A DNA stretch of 64,000 nt, taken from positions 268,189 to 332,188 of the forward strand of contig JBGSUQ010000025.1 in the NCBI GenBank assembly GCA_041753395.1. Reading direction: 5' to 3'. How positions within the stretch are numbered: position 1 is the first letter of the stretch; each line of letters begins with the position of its first letter. This DNA comes from Spirochaetota bacterium. Lineage in GTDB: Bacteria; Spirochaetota; UBA4802; UBA5550. The translations under genes and the position numbers were made by a program. Positions 41,312 through 50,486 of the stretch are shown here, piece after piece. Under the pieces are notes generated by a model. The model worked only from the letters and a program-made list of their open reading frames with translations, was not told the origin of the DNA and made no database searches.

Positions 41312-42415
41312 TCAGGGGCAGATTACGATACCCTTGGCCCAGAGACATTCGCCGCAGGGTGTCTGGTTCCCGTAGCAGTCGGAAGCTTCAACGGTGCGCT
41401 TGTAGCACATGTCGGGCCGGTAACAATACGCGCAGTCCGGGTAATCATAATAGAGGAAATTATTTCTTAATTCCACGAATGTTCTTTTGTTCCACACCTC
41501 CTCCAGCGTGTCGGCCTTTATGTTTCCCAGTATAAACTTCTCGTGCATCCTTTGCATCCCGGAATAAAAGGCCGGATGGGTATAGGCCAGCTCCGGGCAG
41601 GGGGCGATATCTCCTTCGGCAGTGATAAACATGGTTCCCCGTTCCATGAAGGGACATGTCCGGTTGCCGTGCATTTCCTGGTTTGCCACCCTGAGCGGGT
41701 ATTTCTTCATCTCCCGGCGGAGCAGCCTGCGCAGGTCCGTGTTTTTCCCGAATCCGGTATCGTACAGGATCTCCGATGTCATTGACTTCGTGTATGGATA
41801 CAGGTTGGAAACAATGAATTGATTTATGCCGATCGACCGGCCGTATTCGATCGACCCGGGTATGTGTTGATAGTTTACCCTGGTCGCGACTATCTGCATT
41901 CCTATCATCGGGAGGCTGTTTCCAGAGGCGGCTTTTATTCCGGCCAGTGTCTCTATATTGCTTCTAAATATATCGGCCCTGGCACCGCGACGGATATTCA
42001 AATCAGTTCCGAATATATCATCATCCCATGAAACATGCAATTCGTCAAGAGGGAGGCTGACAAGGTATTCAGACATTTCCCTGGTGAGAAAAGAGGCGTT
42101 CGATACAAGTACGATCTTCGTGTCCAGTTTGCGCAATGACTTCAGGTTCTCCCTGATATGGGGGCTGCTGAGTGCCTCGCCGAAGCCCAGGAGTACGATT
42201 CTCTCCGGACTGGGGGCCTCCAGCATCGGCATCAGTTTTCGCATTAGCCGGGGTGTGAAATGGCATTTCCTGAAATCAACTATCGATTGTCTGATACAGC
42301 TCCGGCACGACAGGTTACAATGCGTTGTAAGCTCTATGTATACCTGCCTGATGCAAGGGGATACCGTCTGCGTTTCAGACCTGAAAACGAGGGAAAAATT
42401 TTCTTTTTTGCTCAT
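41312..42415 (-). CDS. radical SAM enzyme with C-terminal SPASM/twitch Cys-rich domain
   Basis: CNLSCRSC is the CxxxCxxC motif. C-terminal CPFM...CPEL...CAYCYRPDMC...CGECLWAKGIVICP. ATGA overlap with arsC (42412-42415). Last gene of the hgc/ars operon. Confidence 0.8.
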   Translation of the reverse strand: MSKKENFSLVFRSETQTVSPCIRQVYIELTTHCNLSCRSCIRQSIVDFRKCHFTPRLMRKLMPMLEAPSPERIVLLGFGEALSSPHIRENLKSLRKLDTKIVLVSNASFLTREMSEYLVSLPLDELHVSWDDDIFGTDLNIRRGARADIFRSNIETLAGIKAASGNSLPMIGMQIVATRVNYQHIPGSIEYGRSIGINQFIVSNLYPYTKSMTSEILYDTGFGKNTDLRRLLRREMKKYPLRVANQEMHGNRTCPFMERGTMFITAEGDIAPCPELAYTHPAFYSGMQRMHEKFILGNIKADTLEEVWNKRTFVELRNNFLYYDYPDCAYCYRPDMCYKRTVEASDCYGNQTPCGECLWAKGIVICP

Positions 42416-42867
42416 GGATTGTTAATGTCAGGATTTATCAGCGATTGCGGGATTGCTTCAATGAATGCGCGTATCTCGTTACGGACCCGACGGTAGTGCG
42501 CCAGCGCCTCATTTTCGCCGGTGGCGTTTTGTGCCAGAGCGGGCGGATCGTCGAAGCCCTTGTGTATAAATTTCGCCTTGCCGCGGAAGAAGGGGCAGGT
42601 TTCGGACACGCCCCCGCACAGGGTGATGACGTAATCGAATTTCAAACCGGCGAATTCATCCACGTGTTTCGAACGCTGGACCGATATGTCGATGCCGATC
42701 TCGGCCATGACAGTGACTGCGCGCGGGTCAAGGCCTTTTGGCTCAGTCCCGGCCGAATGCGCATCAATGAGATCGCTTTTCAGATGCCGGGCCAGTCCCT
42801 CGGCCATTTGGCTCCGGCAGGAGTTCCCGGTGCAAAGGAAGAGTATTTTTATTTTATCGGAAGGCAT
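42412..42867 (-). CDS. arsC: arsenate reductase, thioredoxin-coupled LMW-PTPase type
   Basis: ILFLCTGNSCRSQMAEG...VITLCGGVSETCP holds the three catalytic Cys of Bacillus-type ArsC. Strong full-length similarity. Confidence 0.9.
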   Translation of the reverse strand: MPSDKIKILFLCTGNSCRSQMAEGLARHLKSDLIDAHSAGTEPKGLDPRAVTVMAEIGIDISVQRSKHVDEFAGLKFDYVITLCGGVSETCPFFRGKAKFIHKGFDDPPALAQNATGENEALAHYRRVRNEIRAFIEAIPQSLINPDINNP

Positions 42868-42876
42868 ATAATTCTC

Positions 42877-43557
42877 CTATTTTCCATTCATGTTTTTTTG
42901 TCTGAGCCGTTCCATTAAATCCTTTGCTTTCTGCATGGCGTCCTGCTCGGATTTATCACTGGCGGCAAGCCAGGGCTGTGTTACCTGCCAGGTCAATTTT
43001 CCCGAATAGGGAGGTTCGGGATACGCGCCGGGATCAAGCAGGGTATTCCCCATGAATTCAACCGGATTTTCCTGAAAACACGACCAAACTGCTTTTCGAA
43101 TTATTTCCGGGTCGCCCTGGAACTGAAGGTCGATGAGACTCACCTGCTCCCTGAACCGTTTAATGAATTCGACAGGGATATTGTACAGATAAGGATGAAG
43201 GGCATCAGTGCCGATTATCTTTTTCTTCTCATCCACGCCATTGGCCATGAGGGCCTTCAGGGCGGAGCCGGTCTGGCGACCGTCCGATTCGGGACCGCCG
43301 AGAATCAAATACCTGATGTTGGGATTGGCTACGAAATTGCAGATCATTTTTTCAAAGCCGATGTTAGGGGTCTGCACCGTGCCGGACAGGGCCGCTCCGG
43401 TTTCCGCGCCGGCGCGAACCAGAAGTTCGATTTCGGGAGGAATCTTGTCCTCGTCAGTTTTGAGAATAATTGCCACTGCGACCGGGGAAAAGTCATTTCC
43501 CCGTATGTAGCGTCCCGGTTCGCAGGGGTAATCCGGATGTGGCGGTACTTTCAGCAT
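42877..43557 (-). CDS. MtrA-like protein (homolog of tetrahydromethanopterin S-methyltransferase subunit A, a corrinoid-binding fold)
   Basis: The stretch NPNIRYLILGGPESDGRQTGSALKALMANGVDEKKKIIGTDALHPYLYNIPVEFIKRFREQVSLIDL aligns by eye with archaeal MtrA (NPNIRYLLV..GHITGQS..NGV....I.GA.GAIPYVENL..EAIARFQEQV..VNL). The position of the MtrA His ligand appears to be Arg. Confidence 0.65.
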   Translation of the reverse strand: MLKVPPHPDYPCEPGRYIRGNDFSPVAVAIILKTDEDKIPPEIELLVRAGAETGAALSGTVQTPNIGFEKMICNFVANPNIRYLILGGPESDGRQTGSALKALMANGVDEKKKIIGTDALHPYLYNIPVEFIKRFREQVSLIDLQFQGDPEIIRKAVWSCFQENPVEFMGNTLLDPGAYPEPPYSGKLTWQVTQPWLAASDKSEQDAMQKAKDLMERLRQKNMNGK

Positions 43558-43614
43558 GTTGTAGTGCTCTCTGGTAGTATGATTTTCAAAATCATACTAC
43601 CGTTTCTTCTCCTA

Positions 43615-48910: not shown

Positions 48911-48921
48911 GAATTCCTCCC

Positions 48922-49233
48922 TCAGCAGCAGCCGGTGGATTTTGCGCCGGACGGTGTTCCGGAATCTCCGCAGCCGCAGACCGGCTCACCGCCGGTCAGC
49001 ATCCCCTTGATGAGGGCCGCGGCGCATCCCATGCCGGAGCCGACGGCCAGGGCGCCGAATTCGCAGTTCAACGCACATGCGCCGCACTCCATGCAGCGGT
49101 CCCTGTCGATGATCGCTGCTTTCCCGTCCTTCATCTCGAACACGGCATGGGGGCACACCTCTGTGCATTTTCTGCAACCCGTACATTTACCCGGGTCGTA
49201 CTCCAGGGTGGTTACGTTTTTCAGGTATTTCAT
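48922..49233 (-). CDS. hgcB: HgcB, 2[4Fe-4S] ferredoxin of the mercury-methylation pair
   Basis: Two CxxCxxCxxxCP motifs (CTGCRKCTEVCP, CMECGACALNC). Cys-rich tail ending ...GCC. GGGGGA SD. ATGA overlap with the hgcA stop. Confidence 0.85.
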   Translation of the reverse strand: MKYLKNVTTLEYDPGKCTGCRKCTEVCPHAVFEMKDGKAAIIDRDRCMECGACALNCEFGALAVGSGMGCAAALIKGMLTGGEPVCGCGDSGTPSGAKSTGCC

Positions 49234-50423
49234 ATGATCCCCCATGATTGGATTTTATACATAACAAGAAGTATTGCTGATATTACAAGGCCGGTTATAT
49301 ATATCGGAAGCCATATCTTCAGCTCCTTTTTGACCCCCGATATAGTCGTAAAGGTGGTGGCCCCGGTGAATTGAAGGGCCAGGTATGATGAAATGAGCGG
49401 GAAGAGCAGCAGCGCCGATGCCTTCAGAAACCATGAGCTTCCTCCTGCCGGTGTCAGGATAACCAGAGGCGCCACCGTGATGGCCCCGGTGATCAGGCCT
49501 TTTATCGCAAAGGACCTGAAGGGAATGACAGGTAGAAGCGCCGGCATGACAAAAGCGCCCGCAAACAGTGACACAAGGGTCAGGGCCAGAAAGGGCCATC
49601 CCTCGAACCAGGCGTTATAAAAGAGAAAGCCTGATGGCTGAAGCCCGAAGATGATAAACAAAACCAGGACCGCCAGCGGGAATGATCTCAGAGTCTGGTT
49701 CAGCTCGATGGGGGTGAGCACTAGCCGCTGGGCGATACCGAACCGGACCCTTCTCATCTCCGGCGTGGCATGATAACCGGCTGCAACATACTCCCTTATG
49801 TCCGATGCTTCTACCGGGCCGAAATATACTGCAAATCCAGTCTTCTTTTTTACTTCTGAAGCCTTGACCCCCGTTGCGCCCAACTGCGGTATGATGAGCC
49901 GCCTGTGGGAAACAAGGCCGGAGAGCTTCAAGGCGAGGACCCGTTTTACCAGTTCGTCGGTGCCGAAGGTGCCTTTGCCGGCCGCGCACCACACGTTGAT
50001 GCCTTTAGTGTCAAGGACGAGTATCCACCCGCTCATGCCGGCAAGTTTGCGGCGCAGTATGTCAAAGCTGAGTTTGTAATTTGCGGAAACAAAAATATCA
50101 GATGCGGCATCGGGGCTGCCGATGGCGTAGAGGCCCGGCTTGACAAGATACTCCATCCGGAAGGAGCCCATCCTGGCCCGTATCCGGCCCCAGCGGTCTG
50201 CCCGTGACCATTCTCCTGAAACAACGGGGACAAGGCCTGAAGCAGTGTTCATGAAGCCGGTTTGCCAGAGAGGTTTTTTGCTGATTATCTCTTTTATTGA
50301 GTTGGCTGCCTGCTGTCTGGCTGACATATCGGCGGTAAGCTTGAACTTGCCCTGGGGCGGAGCGCAACAGTTTTGACCCGGTTTAGTCGTTGATGGGTGA
50401 TCAATCATTTGTAAAGGTTTCAT
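49230..50423 (-). CDS. hgcA: HgcA, corrinoid protein of mercury methylation
   Basis: CFeSP-like corrinoid domain carrying the diagnostic cap-helix motif GINVWCAAGKGTFG. C-terminal 5-TM-helix domain. The ORF-track frame starts at TTG 50429; ATG 50423 is preferred. Confidence 0.9.
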   Translation of the reverse strand: MKPLQMIDHPSTTKPGQNCCAPPQGKFKLTADMSARQQAANSIKEIISKKPLWQTGFMNTASGLVPVVSGEWSRADRWGRIRARMGSFRMEYLVKPGLYAIGSPDAASDIFVSANYKLSFDILRRKLAGMSGWILVLDTKGINVWCAAGKGTFGTDELVKRVLALKLSGLVSHRRLIIPQLGATGVKASEVKKKTGFAVYFGPVEASDIREYVAAGYHATPEMRRVRFGIAQRLVLTPIELNQTLRSFPLAVLVLFIIFGLQPSGFLFYNAWFEGWPFLALTLVSLFAGAFVMPALLPVIPFRSFAIKGLITGAITVAPLVILTPAGGSSWFLKASALLLFPLISSYLALQFTGATTFTTISGVKKELKIWLPIYITGLVISAILLVMYKIQSWGII

Positions 50424-50457
50424 AAACAATATACCATGCTAGTATTGAATATTTGGT

Positions 50458-50486
50458 AATATAGCCAAATAGCCAATGAACGTCAA
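50458..50486 (-). promoter_or_regulatory. sigma70-type promoter for the hgcA operon (minus strand)
   Basis: Minus strand reads TTGACG (50486-50481), a 17-nt spacer, then TATATT (50463-50458), ~30 nt upstream of the hgcA start. Confidence 0.45.

What the first reader, a model, noticed from the sequence alone, without database searches (positions are those of the whole stretch)
41312..50486. Thirteen-gene co-directional operon joining hgcAB (mercury methylation) to an extended arsenic-resistance and thiol-relay module
All 13 genes are on the minus strand with gaps of 63 bp or less. Three junctions are ATGA overlaps. A sigma70-like promoter sits upstream of hgcA.

Gene order: hgcA, hgcB, arsR, Trx-fold paralog B, DUF318/ArsP-like permease, Thioredoxin_3, DGC-domain protein, Trx-fold paralog A, ccdA, ACR3, mtrA-like, arsC, radical-SAM/SPASM.

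An ArsR-type regulator next to hgcAB has been reported in some methylators. As far as I know, hgcAB has not been described as physically continuous with a complete ars detoxification set, a second corrinoid protein, a CcdA thiol relay and a radical-SAM enzyme in one transcriptional unit. The arrangement suggests co-regulated handling of Hg(II) and As oxyanions or organoarsenicals, all thiol-reactive and methylatable.
Basis: partly seen in the sequence, partly recalled or inferred. Interest (0 to 1): 0.85.

Follow-up and report, generated by a model that had tools for sequence, protein, structure and literature searches.

The report
Mercury-methylation genes leading an arsenic-resistance operon
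An uncultured spirochaete carries its mercury-methylating genes (hgcAB) at the head of a tight 13-gene arsenic-resistance cluster behind one conserved repressor-controlled promoter; this is the fullest example so far of a mercury-arsenic gene link that is already published, and it adds an MtrA-like protein as a new recurring partner.

Summary
Thirteen minus-strand genes (41312-50423) are 97% coding. Gaps are at most 63 bp, with three ATGA overlaps.

Profile HMMs confirm every by-eye call and sharpen three of them. The "Trx-fold paralogs", "Thioredoxin_3" and "ccdA" are ArsF (two copies), ArsE and ArsG, the known ArsEFG module.

The promoter upstream of hgcA is conserved in five related Spirochaetota genomes. 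A 13-8-13 palindrome overlaps its -10 box and occurs only once in the window, so a single ArsR-repressed promoter is likely.

The same 13-gene order occurs in a second genome (L088). A relative with only hgcA-hgcB-arsR-rSAM (L081) keeps a relic of arsC, so it is probably a deletion derivative.

The novelty claim is overstated. hgcAB next to arsR, acr3, arsC and arsM has been published since 2020, and about 25% of 80 surveyed hgcA loci carry ars genes.

The new elements are as follows:
- The MtrA-like gene sits in ars or hgc clusters in roughly a third of well-flanked loci. It is directly adjacent to hgcAB in four unrelated contigs.
- The window's own MtrA-like copy has Arg in place of the cobalt-binding His.
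- A Spirochaetota-restricted radical-SAM/SPASM gene of unknown function closes the cluster.

Verdict: new variant of a known kind, moderately interesting.

The parts
50444..50486 (-). Promoter and putative ArsR operator. The -35 box TTGACG is at 50486-50481 and the -10 box TATATT is at 50463-50458. An imperfect 13-8-13 palindrome (arms 50444-50456 and 50465-50477, core TTTGG-N8-CCAAA at 50452-50469) overlaps the -10 box.
   Evidence: Consensus scan. Aligned upstream regions of the window, L088, L081, L084 and L002 show CTTGAC(G/T)-17-TATATT plus ATTTGGCTATATT(A/G)CCAAAT nearly invariant within otherwise diverged spacers. The core palindrome occurs once in 64 kb. Inverted-repeat arms. TTGG-N8-CCAA is found 59-66 nt upstream of hgcA in L002, L081-83, L087 and L088, against a background of 0.01 per 270 nt.
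49230..50423 (-). hgcA, the corrinoid protein of mercury methylation (397 aa).
   Evidence: NCBIfam NF040863 scores 403 bits against a cutoff of 275. Pfam CdhD matches. The cap-helix motif NVWCAAGK is at residues 143-150, and five or six C-terminal hydrophobic helices are present. P0001 is 100% identical.
48922..49233 (-). hgcB, a 2x[4Fe-4S] ferredoxin (103 aa), with an ATGA overlap with hgcA.
   Evidence: NF040864 scores 120 bits against a cutoff of 99. Two CX2CX2CX3C motifs are present, including CMECGAC, and the protein ends in a CC pair.
48566..48910 (-). arsR, an ArsR/SmtB repressor (114 aa) and the third gene of the unit.
   Evidence: Pfam HTH_5 matches, and NF033788 scores 87 bits against a cutoff of 55. 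Conserved cysteines are C37, C79, C80, C82, C107 and C108. The CC pairs are missing from the paralogous arsR that heads the separate ArsP_1 operon in L084 and L002.
47921..48502 (-). ArsF-family protein B (193 aa). It is membrane-anchored and thioredoxin-like, with a degenerate active site (RDAAC instead of CXXC).
   Evidence: NF040494 scores 75.9 bits against a cutoff of 60. An N-terminal hydrophobic anchor spans residues 2-33, and there is a single Cys at the motif position.
46574..47872 (-). ArsP_1/DUF318-family permease (432 aa).
   Evidence: PF03773 scores 232 bits. It is multi-spanning and has a vicinal CSC at residues 99-101. It scores below the cutoffs of SaoE and SO_0444.
46321..46551 (-). 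ArsE / MTH895-type small thioredoxin-like protein (76 aa) with a CFKC motif.
   Evidence: PF13192 scores 87 bits, and TIGR00412 scores 102 bits against a cutoff of 62. Motif.
45902..46309 (-). DGC-domain Cys-rich protein (135 aa).
   Evidence: PF08859 scores 94.5 bits. Nine Cys are present, including the DGC motif at residue 67.
45365..45871 (-). ArsF-family protein A (168 aa). It is membrane-anchored and has an intact CPTC motif.
   Evidence: NF040494 scores 115.6 bits against a cutoff of 60. The anchor spans residues 3-28 and CPTC is at residues 71-74.
44670..45368 (-). ArsG, a CcdA/DsbD-like membrane protein (232 aa), with an ATGA overlap with arsF-A.
   Evidence: NF040495 scores 273.7 bits against a cutoff of 200. 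Pfam DsbD_2 also matches.
43615..44655 (-). acr3, the arsenite efflux permease (346 aa).
   Evidence: TIGR00832 scores 455 bits against a cutoff of 283. Pfam SBF also matches.
43572..43602 (-). Perfect 13-14-bp stem with a 3-nt loop in the acr3-mtrA gap. No U-run follows it.
   Evidence: The RNA fold gives -21.9 kcal/mol with z = -5.2. It is not repeated elsewhere in the window. L088 cannot hold it, because the acr3-mtrA gap there is only 22 bp.
42877..43557 (-). MtrA-like soluble protein (226 aa). This copy carries Arg94 where the family has the cobalt-ligand His.
   Evidence: PF04208 scores 122 bits, and NF002126 scores 188 bits against a cutoff of 161. In the PDB 5laa alignment, His84 aligns to Arg94 and Glu54 to Pro64. 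120 of 121 homologues have His. The codon is CGC at 43278-43276. No TM helix is predicted.
42412..42867 (-). arsC, a low-molecular-weight-phosphatase (thioredoxin-coupled) type arsenate reductase (151 aa).
   Evidence: PF01451 scores 70.6 bits. TIGR02691 scores 126.8 bits, below its cutoff of 174. The CX5R loop is at residues 12-18, and Cys84 and Cys91 are present.
41312..42415 (-). Radical-SAM/SPASM enzyme (367 aa) of unknown substrate, with an ATGA overlap with arsC.
   Evidence: Pfam Radical_SAM and SPASM match. The nearest NCBIfam model, TIGR04317, scores 253 bits against a cutoff of 380. The CX3CX2C motif is at residues 33-40, and nine invariant C-terminal Cys are present. The AF2 model has pLDDT 87.7. 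The best folds are SuiB, BlsE, SkfB, anSME and PqqE at 12-18% identity.

Best explanation
This is a composite metal(loid)-stress operon in the core chromosome of an uncultured Spirochaetota bacterium.

**Regulation.** One sigma70-type promoter lies upstream of hgcA. It carries a palindromic operator over its -10 box. The ArsR encoded as the third gene most likely binds that operator and represses the unit. Binding of a thiol-reactive inducer to its cysteine clusters (C37; C79/C80/C82; C107/C108) would release it. The most likely inducer is As(III) or a trivalent organoarsenical.

**Products.** Read-through then expresses, in order:
- HgcAB, a corrinoid/ferredoxin methyl-transfer pair whose known activity is Hg(II) methylation.
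- An ArsP_1 permease with ArsE and a DGC protein.
- A membrane thiol relay or efflux pair, ArsF and ArsG.
- Acr3, which pumps As(III) out.
- An MtrA-like protein.
- ArsC, which reduces As(V) to As(III).
- A radical-SAM/SPASM enzyme.

The cluster therefore fuses into one unit what are three separate, arsenic-co-induced ArsR operons in Pseudodesulfovibrio mercurii ND132: arsR2-hgcAB, arsR3-acr3-arsC and arsR5-arsP-arsE-DGC.

**Shown versus inferred.** Shown: gene identities, packing, promoter/operator conservation, recurrence in a second genome, and recurrence of the theme in other phyla. Inferred: a single transcript, ArsR binding to the palindrome, the identity of the inducer, and any biochemical cooperation between HgcAB and the ars proteins.
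For: - Gene calls come from curated HMMs.
- Gaps are at most 63 bp, there are three 4-bp overlaps, and no terminator-like site falls in any gap.
- The promoter and palindrome are conserved in the window, L088, L081, L084 and L002 while the surrounding spacer diverges. There is only one copy of the operator and only one arsR in the cluster.
- The same 13-gene order and flanks occur in L088.
- The arsR-rSAM spacer of L081 retains an arsC 3' relic. The best nucleotide alignment is collinear and scores 30, against a maximum of 29 in 200 shuffles. The peptide relic is DDPP...FIDGIPP. The long form is therefore ancestral and was maintained in at least two lineages.
- hgcAB contiguous with ars genes recurs in Bacteroidota, Fibrobacterota, Nitrospirota and Desulfobacterota: 14 of 80 loci are contiguous and 20 of 80 are within 10 kb. 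This includes a Nitrospiraceae locus, L032, with hgcAB, ArsP_1, DGC, ArsE, arsR, MtrA-like, Trx and DsbD.
- Experimental precedent: in ND132, ArsR2 controls hgcAB and responds to As, and the acr3-arsC and arsP-arsE-DGC operons are co-induced (10.1101/2022.10.17.512643).
- In lake metatranscriptomes, arsR-linked hgcA shows lower expression (PMC11984097).
Against: - There is no transcript evidence. Gaps of 63 bp (arsR/arsF-B), 48 bp and 57 bp could hide internal promoters.
- A strong hairpin sits between acr3 and the MtrA-like gene.
- In close relatives, hgcAB-arsR stands without the ars block (L081) or is followed by unrelated genes (L084). The hgcAB-arsR core is therefore functional on its own.
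- The ArsR lacks the classical ELCVCDL As(III) site, having only C37 in helix 3. The inducer is therefore unknown. S-adenosylhomocysteine is a documented alternative signal for the ND132 regulator.
- ArsC scores below the equivalog cutoffs.
- The MtrA-like copy lacks its cofactor ligand.
Confidence: 0.62

Rival explanations
1. Juxtaposed but independent units. In this view hgcAB-arsR is a self-contained autoregulated operon. The ars block (arsF-B to arsC, possibly with rSAM) is transcribed from its own constitutive or separately controlled promoter(s). The adjacency would reflect genome compaction or module shuffling, not co-regulation.
For: - hgcAB-arsR occurs without the block in L081, and with unrelated downstream genes in L084 and L002.
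- The modules [ArsP_1-ArsE-DGC], [ArsF-ArsG] and [acr3-MtrA-arsC] occur separately and in other orders elsewhere.
- Promoter-like hexamers exist at 48502-48474 and 44719-44691.
- A hairpin lies at 43572-43602.
Against: - The internal promoter-like hits lie inside coding sequence. Overall they are not above the shuffle expectation (15 found against 9.9 +/- 3.3).
- The arsR-arsF spacer is not conserved in L088 beyond the stop codon.
- There is no second arsR and no second operator in the block.
- No terminator-like site follows arsR.
- The order is retained in two diverged genomes.
Confidence: 0.25
2. Functionally integrated arsenic pathway. In this view HgcAB, with the MtrA-like protein and possibly the radical-SAM enzyme, is itself an arsenic or organoarsenical-handling activity. 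An example would be corrinoid-dependent methyl transfer to As(III) in an ArsM-independent route. Hg methylation would then be a side reaction, and the operon would be a single biochemical pathway rather than only a shared regulon.
For: - hgcAB sits inside ars clusters in several phyla.
- The MtrA-like family is ars- or hgc-linked in 10 of 29 loci with at least 6 kb of flank. It is directly adjacent to hgcAB in L103, L131, L139 and L160.
- The ND132 hgcAB knockout is more As(V)-sensitive (abstract of 10.1101/2022.10.17.512643 as I recall it; the passage read only introduces the wild-type/knockout comparison).
- No arsM homologue lies in the cluster.
Against: - There is no biochemical evidence for As as an HgcA substrate.
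- Most hgcAB loci (60 of 80) have no ars gene nearby.
- Most MtrA-like genes are in unrelated contexts.
- The window's MtrA-like copy has lost the cobalt ligand.
- arsM is found next to hgcAB in other genomes (PMC7438021), which argues against simple replacement.
Confidence: 0.15
3. Assembly or binning chimera that falsely joins hgcAB to an ars operon.
For: The source is a metagenome-assembled genome.
Against: - An independent Logan assembly contig (L087) is 100% identical from hgcA into acr3.
- L088, from a different species, has the same order.
- The flanks are syntenic with L081 and L084.
- Base composition is uniform.
Confidence: 0.01

Closest known systems
ArsR2-hgcAB and the arsenic-responsive ArsR regulon of Pseudodesulfovibrio mercurii ND132 (Gionfriddo et al., bioRxiv 10.1101/2022.10.17.512643; AEM 2023)
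   Same: An ArsR-family regulator is co-encoded with hgcAB. The same accessory sets are involved (acr3-arsC; arsP-arsE-DGC), and in ND132 they are co-induced with hgcAB by arsenic.
   Different: In ND132, arsR is upstream of hgcA and no ars genes are co-located with hgcAB; three operons are scattered across the genome. Here arsR is the third gene and everything forms one string. The cysteine patterns of the regulators differ: C26/47/49/86/88 in ND132 against C37/79/80/82/107/108 here.
Published hgcAB-ars gene neighbourhoods (McDaniel et al. 2020, PMC7438021 Fig. 6; Zhang et al. 2023, PMC10349881; Peterson et al. 2025, PMC11984097)
   Same: hgcAB is immediately flanked by arsR, acr3/arsB, arsC, arsM, arsA or arsD in MAGs from several phyla. 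My survey reproduces this.
   Different: The passages I read in those papers (keyword look-ups) name one to three flanking ars genes. None mentions ArsP_1/ArsE/DGC, ArsF/ArsG, an MtrA-like protein or a radical-SAM gene in the same string. No paper in the searchable library holds both hgcA and MtrA.
ArsEFG of Shewanella putrefaciens (Chen, Zhang & Rosen 2019, Environ Sci Technol 53:6182; cited in PMC9144182)
   Same: ArsE, ArsF and ArsG family membership is met by NCBIfam cutoffs. arsF-arsG are translationally coupled.
   Different: There are two ArsF paralogues, one with a degenerate active site. ArsE is separated from ArsF and ArsG and is paired instead with ArsP_1 and DGC. The natural substrate in an anoxic-sediment spirochaete is unlikely to be synthetic roxarsone or nitarsone (inference). 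By sequence the trio looks like a CcdA-ResA/TlpA-type transmembrane thiol relay, with an anchored CXXC protein plus a two-Cys DsbD_2 membrane protein.
Cytoplasmic MtrA homologues (Wagner et al. 2016, PMC4915002; PDB 5laa)
   Same: The cobalamin-binding Rossmann-type domain aligns at E = 3e-31 over residues 4-169. There is no TM helix. The bacterial family keeps the His84 equivalent in 120 of 121 members.
   Different: It is bacterial, with a conserved 55-residue C-terminal extension. The Glu54 partner is Pro in this subgroup. The window copy has Arg at the His84 position. The context is ars/hgc clusters, not methanogenesis.
SPASM-domain radical-SAM maturases (anSME, SuiB, SkfB, PqqE; NCBIfam TIGR04317/TIGR04311)
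   Same: The CX3CX2C motif, the auxiliary-cluster cysteines and the overall fold match.
   Different: It scores below every curated family cutoff. Identity to any solved structure is 12-18%. The family is small (about 83 close homologues among 5.8 billion proteins), and all named members are Spirochaetota. No substrate peptide or target enzyme can be identified.

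Membership tests
HgcA (mercury methylation corrinoid protein) | Curated equivalog HMM NF040863 scores above its cutoff | tested here: met
   403.1 bits against a cutoff of 275, covering profile positions 1-323 of 325
HgcA (mercury methylation corrinoid protein) | Cap-helix motif N(V/I)WCA(A/G)GK with the Cys ligand | tested here: met
   NVWCAAGK at residues 143-150. 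The motif is invariant in the 20-sequence alignment.
HgcA (mercury methylation corrinoid protein) | C-terminal multi-helix membrane domain and an adjacent hgcB | tested here: met
   Hydrophobic segments span residues 241-392. hgcB overlaps by ATGA.
HgcA (mercury methylation corrinoid protein) | Hg(II) methylation activity | not testable with these tools
   Requires culture or heterologous assay
HgcB | NF040864 above its cutoff, two CX2CX2CX3C motifs and a C-terminal Cys pair | tested here: met
   120.3 bits against a cutoff of 99. Motifs are at residues 17 and 47, and CC at 102-103.
ArsR/SmtB metalloregulator | Winged-helix HTH_5 domain; NF033788 above its cutoff | tested here: met
   HTH_5 scores 51.5 bits, and NF033788 scores 87 bits against a cutoff of 55
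ArsR/SmtB metalloregulator | Classical As(III) site CVC(D) in helix alpha3 (R773 type) | tested here: not met
   The sequence is ERCVNEL, with a single Cys37
ArsR/SmtB metalloregulator | An alternative cysteine cluster able to bind As(III) | tested here: inconclusive
   C79, C80, C82 and C107, C108 are conserved in hgcAB-linked orthologues only. Binding was not tested.
ArsR/SmtB metalloregulator | Palindromic operator overlapping its own promoter | tested here: met
   A 13-8-13 inverted repeat lies over the -10 box and is conserved in five genomes. Binding itself was not tested.
ArsEFG | ArsE: TIGR00412 above its cutoff, with a CXXC motif | tested here: met
   101.9 bits against a cutoff of 62. 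CFKC motif.
ArsEFG | ArsF: NF040494 above its cutoff | tested here: met
   115.6 and 75.9 bits against a cutoff of 60. Paralogue A has CPTC; paralogue B has only AAC.
ArsEFG | ArsG: NF040495 equivalog above its cutoff | tested here: met
   273.7 bits against a cutoff of 200
ArsEFG | Nitro-aromatic arsenical reduction and efflux | not testable with these tools
   Needs resistance and biotransformation assays
Acr3 arsenite efflux permease | TIGR00832 equivalog above its cutoff | tested here: met
   455.2 bits against a cutoff of 282.8
Thioredoxin-coupled ArsC (pI258 type) | TIGR02691 equivalog above its cutoff | tested here: not met
   126.8 bits against a cutoff of 174.3
Thioredoxin-coupled ArsC (pI258 type) | CX5R P-loop plus a downstream Cys pair (Cys82/Cys89 equivalents; positions recalled from the pI258 enzyme) | tested here: met
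   CTGNSCR at residues 12-18, plus Cys84 and Cys91
ArsP (methylarsenite efflux permease) | PF03773 ArsP_1 domain | tested here: met
   232.4 bits. Orthology to the characterised ArsP was not established, because no curated equivalog matched.
MtrA (corrinoid subunit of the Mtr methyltransferase) | PF04208 domain | tested here: met
   122.1 bits. PDB 5laa aligns at E = 3.4e-31.
MtrA (corrinoid subunit of the Mtr methyltransferase) | Equivalog TIGR01111, a C-terminal TM helix and an mtrEDCBAFGH context | tested here: not met
   115.7 bits against a cutoff of 249. No TM helix is predicted. No other mtr genes are present.
MtrA (corrinoid subunit of the Mtr methyltransferase) | Lower axial cobalt ligand His84 with Glu54 as its H-bond partner | tested here: not met
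   The window has Arg94 and Pro64 at these positions. 120 of 121 family members have His.
Radical SAM / SPASM | CX3CX2C motif plus SPASM auxiliary-cluster cysteines | tested here: met
   C33, C37 and C40, plus invariant C254 to C366. PF13186 scores 45.7 bits.
Radical SAM / SPASM | Membership of a functionally named subfamily (TIGR04317, TIGR04311, ArsS and others) | tested here: not met
   252.7 bits against a cutoff of 380; 195.7 against 400; ArsS 20 against 300

The most novel reading that the evidence does not exclude
The MtrA-like protein is a previously unrecognised functional partner of both ars operons and HgcAB. In Spirochaetota its companion would be the lineage-restricted radical-SAM/SPASM enzyme.

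It could act as a second corrinoid carrier or methyl relay. That role would tie HgcAB's native function to metalloid (As) detoxification rather than to mercury.

On this reading, the 13-gene operon is the fossil-complete form of that pathway, and smaller hgcAB-arsR units such as L081 are deletion derivatives.
Probability: 0.2. Interest if true: 0.8.

Novelty: new variant of a known kind. Interest (0 to 1): 0.5.

Why it matters
Why microbes carry hgcAB, and what controls it, is a long-standing open question. It has direct consequences for methylmercury production in the environment.

The leading hypothesis links hgcAB to arsenic resistance. It rests on one model organism, ND132, where the relevant operons are scattered.

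This cluster, together with its relatives in other phyla, gives independent comparative support. The same three ND132 operons are fused behind one conserved, operator-bearing promoter.

It also supplies concrete reagents:
- a defined operator sequence;
- an ArsR with a distinct cysteine pattern;
- two new candidate partners, the MtrA-like protein and the radical-SAM/SPASM enzyme.

If arsenic really induces hgcAB through such operons, co-contamination with arsenic would be a predictor of methylmercury formation.

Tried and rejected
1. **Assembly chimera.** Rejected by independent contigs L087 and L088.
2. **Mobile island or plasmid origin.** No transposase or integrase lies nearby. The flanks are core genes (nusA-infB-truB-pnp, glyS, uvrD, MCP, GT4) and are syntenic with relatives. 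GC content is uniform.
3. **Recent insertion of the ars block into hgcAB-arsR-rSAM.** This was my first reading of L081. I replaced it with deletion in L081 after finding the arsC 3' relic in its arsR-rSAM spacer.
4. **Cobalamin riboswitch or other known RNA element.** Rfam gave zero hits at gathering thresholds across the whole window.
5. **A second operator copy or a second arsR inside the block.** None found.
6. **Internal promoter-like hexamers.** They lie in coding sequence, are not conserved in L088, and in total are not above the shuffle expectation.
7. **The hairpin at 43572-43602 as a terminator or repeat element.** It has no U-run, is unique in the window, and cannot fit in L088, where the acr3-mtrA gap is only 22 bp. 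It remains unexplained.
8. **Function of the radical-SAM enzyme from its structure.** The AF2 model is good, but Foldseek returns only generic SPASM/twitch enzymes at 12-18% identity. The PDB sequence search found nothing.
9. **PDB sequence search for ArsF.** It found nothing.
10. **A single conserved neighbour of the MtrA-like gene.** Neighbours are heterogeneous. The largest recurrent groups are acr3 and DGC, with five loci each.

Full report
**1. Observation**

Thirteen ORFs lie on the minus strand between 41312 and 50429.

I chose start codons by ribosome-binding context, HMM alignment starts and conservation in relatives. With those starts, the successive gaps are -4, 11, 63, 48, 22, 11, 30, -4, 14, 57, 9 and -4 bp. 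The unit spans 9112 bp and is 97% coding.

The three ATGA overlaps are hgcA/hgcB, arsF-A/arsG and arsC/rSAM.

A sigma70-like site, TTGACG-17-TATATT, lies at 50486-50458. No minus-strand terminator-like site falls in an intergenic gap.

The cluster is bounded upstream by a divergent hemerythrin-ferredoxin-flavodiiron operon. It is bounded downstream by a convergent MCP gene.

**2. Gene identities**

Pfam and NCBIfam give the following results:

| Gene | Model | Score (bits) | Cutoff |
|---|---|---|---|
| hgcA | NF040863 | 403 | 275 |
| hgcB | NF040864 | 120 | 99 |
| arsR | NF033788 | 87 | 55 |
| acr3 | TIGR00832 | 455 | 283 |
| ArsP_1 permease | PF03773 | 232 | 32.3 |
| DGC | PF08859 | 94.5 | 27 |
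| MtrA-like | PF04208; NF002126 | 122; 188 | 25; 161 |
| arsC (LMW-phosphatase type) | TIGR02691 | 127 | 174 (not met) |
| rSAM/SPASM | TIGR04317 (nearest model) | 253 | 380 (not met) |

ArsC falls below its equivalog cutoff, but it has the CX5R loop and the downstream Cys pair.

- ArsF: NF040494 scores 115.6 and 75.9 bits against a cutoff of 60.
- ArsE: TIGR00412 scores 102 bits against a cutoff of 62.
- ArsG: NF040495 scores 274 bits against a cutoff of 200.

This is the ArsEFG module of the Rosen laboratory (reference in PMC9144182).

Sequence motifs:
- HgcA has the cap helix NVWCAAGK.
- HgcB has both ferredoxin motifs and the terminal CC.
- ArsF-A has an N-terminal anchor and CPTC.
- ArsF-B has the anchor, but only one Cys of the motif.
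- ArsE has CFKC.
- ArsG is a multi-spanning DsbD_2 protein.

**3. Organism and genomic setting**

The best HgcA homologues are all from Spirochaetota MAGs.

The surrounding genes are core genes: nusA, infB, truB, pnp, glyS and uvrD. Composition is uniform. The cluster is therefore chromosomal and not on an obvious mobile element.

**4. Promoter and operator**

I aligned the hgcA upstream regions of the window with those of four relatives: L088, L081, L084 and L002. HgcA identity among these is 71-88%.

The spacers are otherwise diverged. One nearly invariant block stands out: CTTGAC(G/T), a 17-nt spacer, TATATT, and the palindrome ATTTGGCTATATT(A/G)CCAAAT over the -10 box.

In the window, the inverted repeat extends to 13-8-13 (50444-50477). 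Its core occurs only once in 64 kb. In the locus set, the core is found only 59-66 nt upstream of hgcA in this clade.

This is the classic geometry of an autoregulated ArsR/SmtB operator. Binding itself is inferred.

The same alignment shows a conserved ATGAAACC. This places the hgcA start at 50423.

**5. The regulator**

The hgcAB-linked ArsR orthologues share C37, the LCC(P/S)C cluster (C79/80/82) and a C-terminal CC (C107/108). The paralogous ArsR that heads a separate ArsP_1 operon in L084 and L002 lacks both CC pairs.

The classical CVC As(III) site is absent. The ND132 hgcAB regulator also has a non-classical Cys set, and it responds to As and to S-adenosylhomocysteine. The inducer here therefore remains open.

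**6. Recurrence**

*(a) Same clade.*
- L088 is a 4.8-Mb contig whose proteins are 59-94% identical to the window's. It has all 13 genes in the same order with the same flanks.
- L081 has hgcA-hgcB-arsR-rSAM, with an rSAM 70% identical to the window's and the same flanks.
- L084 and L002 have hgcAB-arsR, and then, after unrelated genes, a separate arsR-ArsP_1-ArsE-DGC operon.

The 135-bp arsR-rSAM spacer of L081 translates to ...DDPPWEERRNFIDGIPP... This matches the ArsC C-terminus, DDPP...RRVRNEIRAFIEAIPQ. Its best nucleotide match against the whole 6.2-kb ars block lands at the collinear end of arsC. The score is 30, and no shuffle out of 200 reached it. L081 is therefore most simply a deletion derivative of the long form.

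*(b) Other phyla.* I surveyed 80 hgcA loci from GTDB species representatives:

| Feature | Loci (of 80) |
|---|---|
| Contiguous arsR | 19 |
| Contiguous non-arsR ars genes | 14 |
| Any ars gene within 10 kb | 20 |
| ArsE/F/G homologues | 9 |

Recurrent patterns include:
- Bacteroidales: arsR-arsC-hgcA-hgcB-acr3.
- Bacteroidota: arsE-arsR-arsF-arsG-(arsC)-hgcAB-acr3.
- Fibrobacter: arsR-arsE-arsF-arsG-hgcAB.
- Nitrospirota: hgcAB-arsC-acr3.
- A Nitrospiraceae locus (L032): hgcAB, ArsP_1, DGC, ArsE, arsR, MtrA-like, Trx, DsbD and CDF.

The sample is the best-scoring 80 of at least 598 matches, so it is biased towards relatives of the query.

**7. What is already known**

- McDaniel et al. 2020 (PMC7438021) show hgcAB flanked by acr3, arsC, arsM and arsR.
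- Gionfriddo et al. demonstrate ArsR control of hgcAB in ND132. Arsenic co-induces arsR3-acr3-arsC and arsR5-arsP-arsE-DGC, and they note co-location with arsC, arsB and arsM in other genomes.
- Later papers repeat the point.

I could not find two things in the searchable literature: any mention of ArsP_1/ArsE/DGC or ArsF/ArsG in the same string as hgcAB, and any paper holding both hgcA and MtrA. The library covers open-access papers only.

**8. The MtrA-like protein**

It aligns to the cobalamin-binding domain of the M. fervidus MtrA homologue (PDB 5laa) at E = 3e-31. At the cobalt-ligand His84 the window protein has Arg94. At the H-bond partner Glu54 it has Pro64 (residue roles from PMC4915002).

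Among 121 family members, the His position is His in 120. It is Arg only in the window copy. The codon is CGC, one transition from CAC.

The family is very likely corrinoid-binding. This copy is either a consensus error or a variant that cannot bind His-on.

The family is large (2853 hits) and unusually conserved, at 65-90% identity across phyla.

I scanned metagenome contigs with a family alignment:
- 22 of 80 loci have ars or hgc homologues nearby.
- Among the 29 loci with at least 6 kb of flank, 10 have such homologues, and 8 have them within 1.5 kb on the same strand.
- Four contigs have the gene directly next to hgcAB: L103 (arsC-hgcA-hgcB-mtrA), L131 (mtrA-hgcA-hgcB), L139 and L160. Their HgcA is only 34-44% identical to the window's.

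Other members sit in unrelated contexts. This ars/hgc association of an MtrA-family protein is, as far as I can tell, undescribed.

**9. The radical-SAM/SPASM enzyme**

Only about 83 close homologues turn up among 5.8 billion proteins. All named ones are Spirochaetota.

Closer members are linked to other cluster genes:
- hgcAB-arsR in L081;
- an LMWP-type arsC in L173;
- the MtrA-like gene in L093/L094.

More distant members have no ars context.

L093/L094 read arsR-arsD-HesB-HesB-arsA-CMD-acr3-arsE-MtrA-rSAM-rSAM-disulfide oxidoreductase.

A confident AF2 model (pLDDT 87.7) matches only generic SPASM/twitch enzymes at 12-18% identity. The function remains unknown. A maturase role is a guess based on family habit.

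**10. Mechanism and confidence**

The best-supported reading is a single ArsR-repressed promoter driving a composite operon. That operon fuses hgcAB with three ars modules that are separate but co-induced in ND132 (confidence about 0.6).

The main rival is that the ars block has its own promoter and the adjacency is only positional (about 0.25).

A stronger, more novel reading is that HgcAB and the MtrA-like protein are themselves part of arsenic chemistry. The evidence does not exclude it, but it has no direct support (about 0.15-0.2).

**11. Verdict**

Novelty is lower than claimed, because the theme is published.

The cluster is still the most complete version seen here. It yields a defined operator, evidence that the long form is ancestral in its clade, and a new recurrent partner gene. 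I rate it a new variant of a known kind, with interest about 0.5.

Noticed in passing
window 43276-43278 (codon 94 of the MtrA-like gene, minus strand): The codon is CGC (Arg) at the position where 120 of 121 family members have His, the cobalt ligand equivalent to MtrA His84. One transition separates it from CAC. It is either a consensus or assembly error, or an inactivating or mode-changing substitution unique to this genome.
   Followed up: partly
window 43572-43602: A perfect 13-14-bp AT-rich stem with a 3-nt loop lies between acr3 and the MtrA-like gene. It folds at -21.9 kcal/mol with z = -5.2. No U-run follows it, it is unique in the window, and the acr3-mtrA gap in L088 is only 22 bp, too short to hold it. 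Its function is unknown; it could be a processing or stability site, an attenuator or a protein-binding site.
   Followed up: partly
window 50774-50787: The palindrome TTGACACAAGTCAA (TTGAC-N4-GTCAA) lies upstream of the divergent hemerythrin-ferredoxin-flavodiiron genes. It is conserved as TCATTGACTTGTGTCAA in L088, L081 and L084. It looks like a CRP/FNR-family site for an oxidative or nitrosative-stress operon. It occurs once in the window, against 0.06 expected.
   Followed up: partly
window 50610-50695: G/C-rich nested inverted repeats (CCCCCCAGACCCCCCGGAGGGGGGC...) lie in the hgcA-hemerythrin spacer. They have no counterpart in the shorter spacers of L081, L084 and L088. This may be a small inserted palindromic element.
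   Followed up: no
window 50364-50369 (HgcA residues 19-20): HgcA has a roughly 60-residue N-terminal extension with a CC pair. The pair appears in the majority consensus of the 20-sequence alignment of Spirochaetota and Nitrospirota HgcA. It resembles the metal-binding C-terminal CC of HgcB.
   Followed up: no
L088 1176-2367: In the only other genome with the full 13-gene order, hgcA is split by a frameshift near position 1672, and ArsP_1 is shortened (360 aa against 432 aa). The cause is either indel errors in that assembly or real pseudogenisation of hgcA inside a retained ars cluster.
   Followed up: no
L093 258-9869 (and L094): A Spirochaetota-like contig carries arsR-arsD-HesB-HesB-arsA-CMD-acr3-arsE-MtrA-like-rSAM-rSAM-pyridine nucleotide disulfide oxidoreductase, followed by a transposase. 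No hgcAB lies in the ~5 kb upstream of the MtrA-like gene or the ~6 kb downstream. A similar oxidoreductase directly follows the MtrA-like gene in L095 and lies convergent to it in L089/L090.
   Followed up: partly
window 47921-48502 against 45365-45871: The two ArsF paralogues differ at the active site. A has CPTC. B has RDAAC, with a single Cys, and a longer Lys/Glu-rich linker after the membrane anchor. This suggests sub-functionalisation into a monothiol or non-catalytic form.
   Followed up: no
L081 11774-11908: The arsR-rSAM spacer of this relative still encodes a decayed ArsC C-terminus (DDPPWEERRNFIDGIPP). This is direct evidence that the ars block was lost from that lineage.
   Followed up: yes
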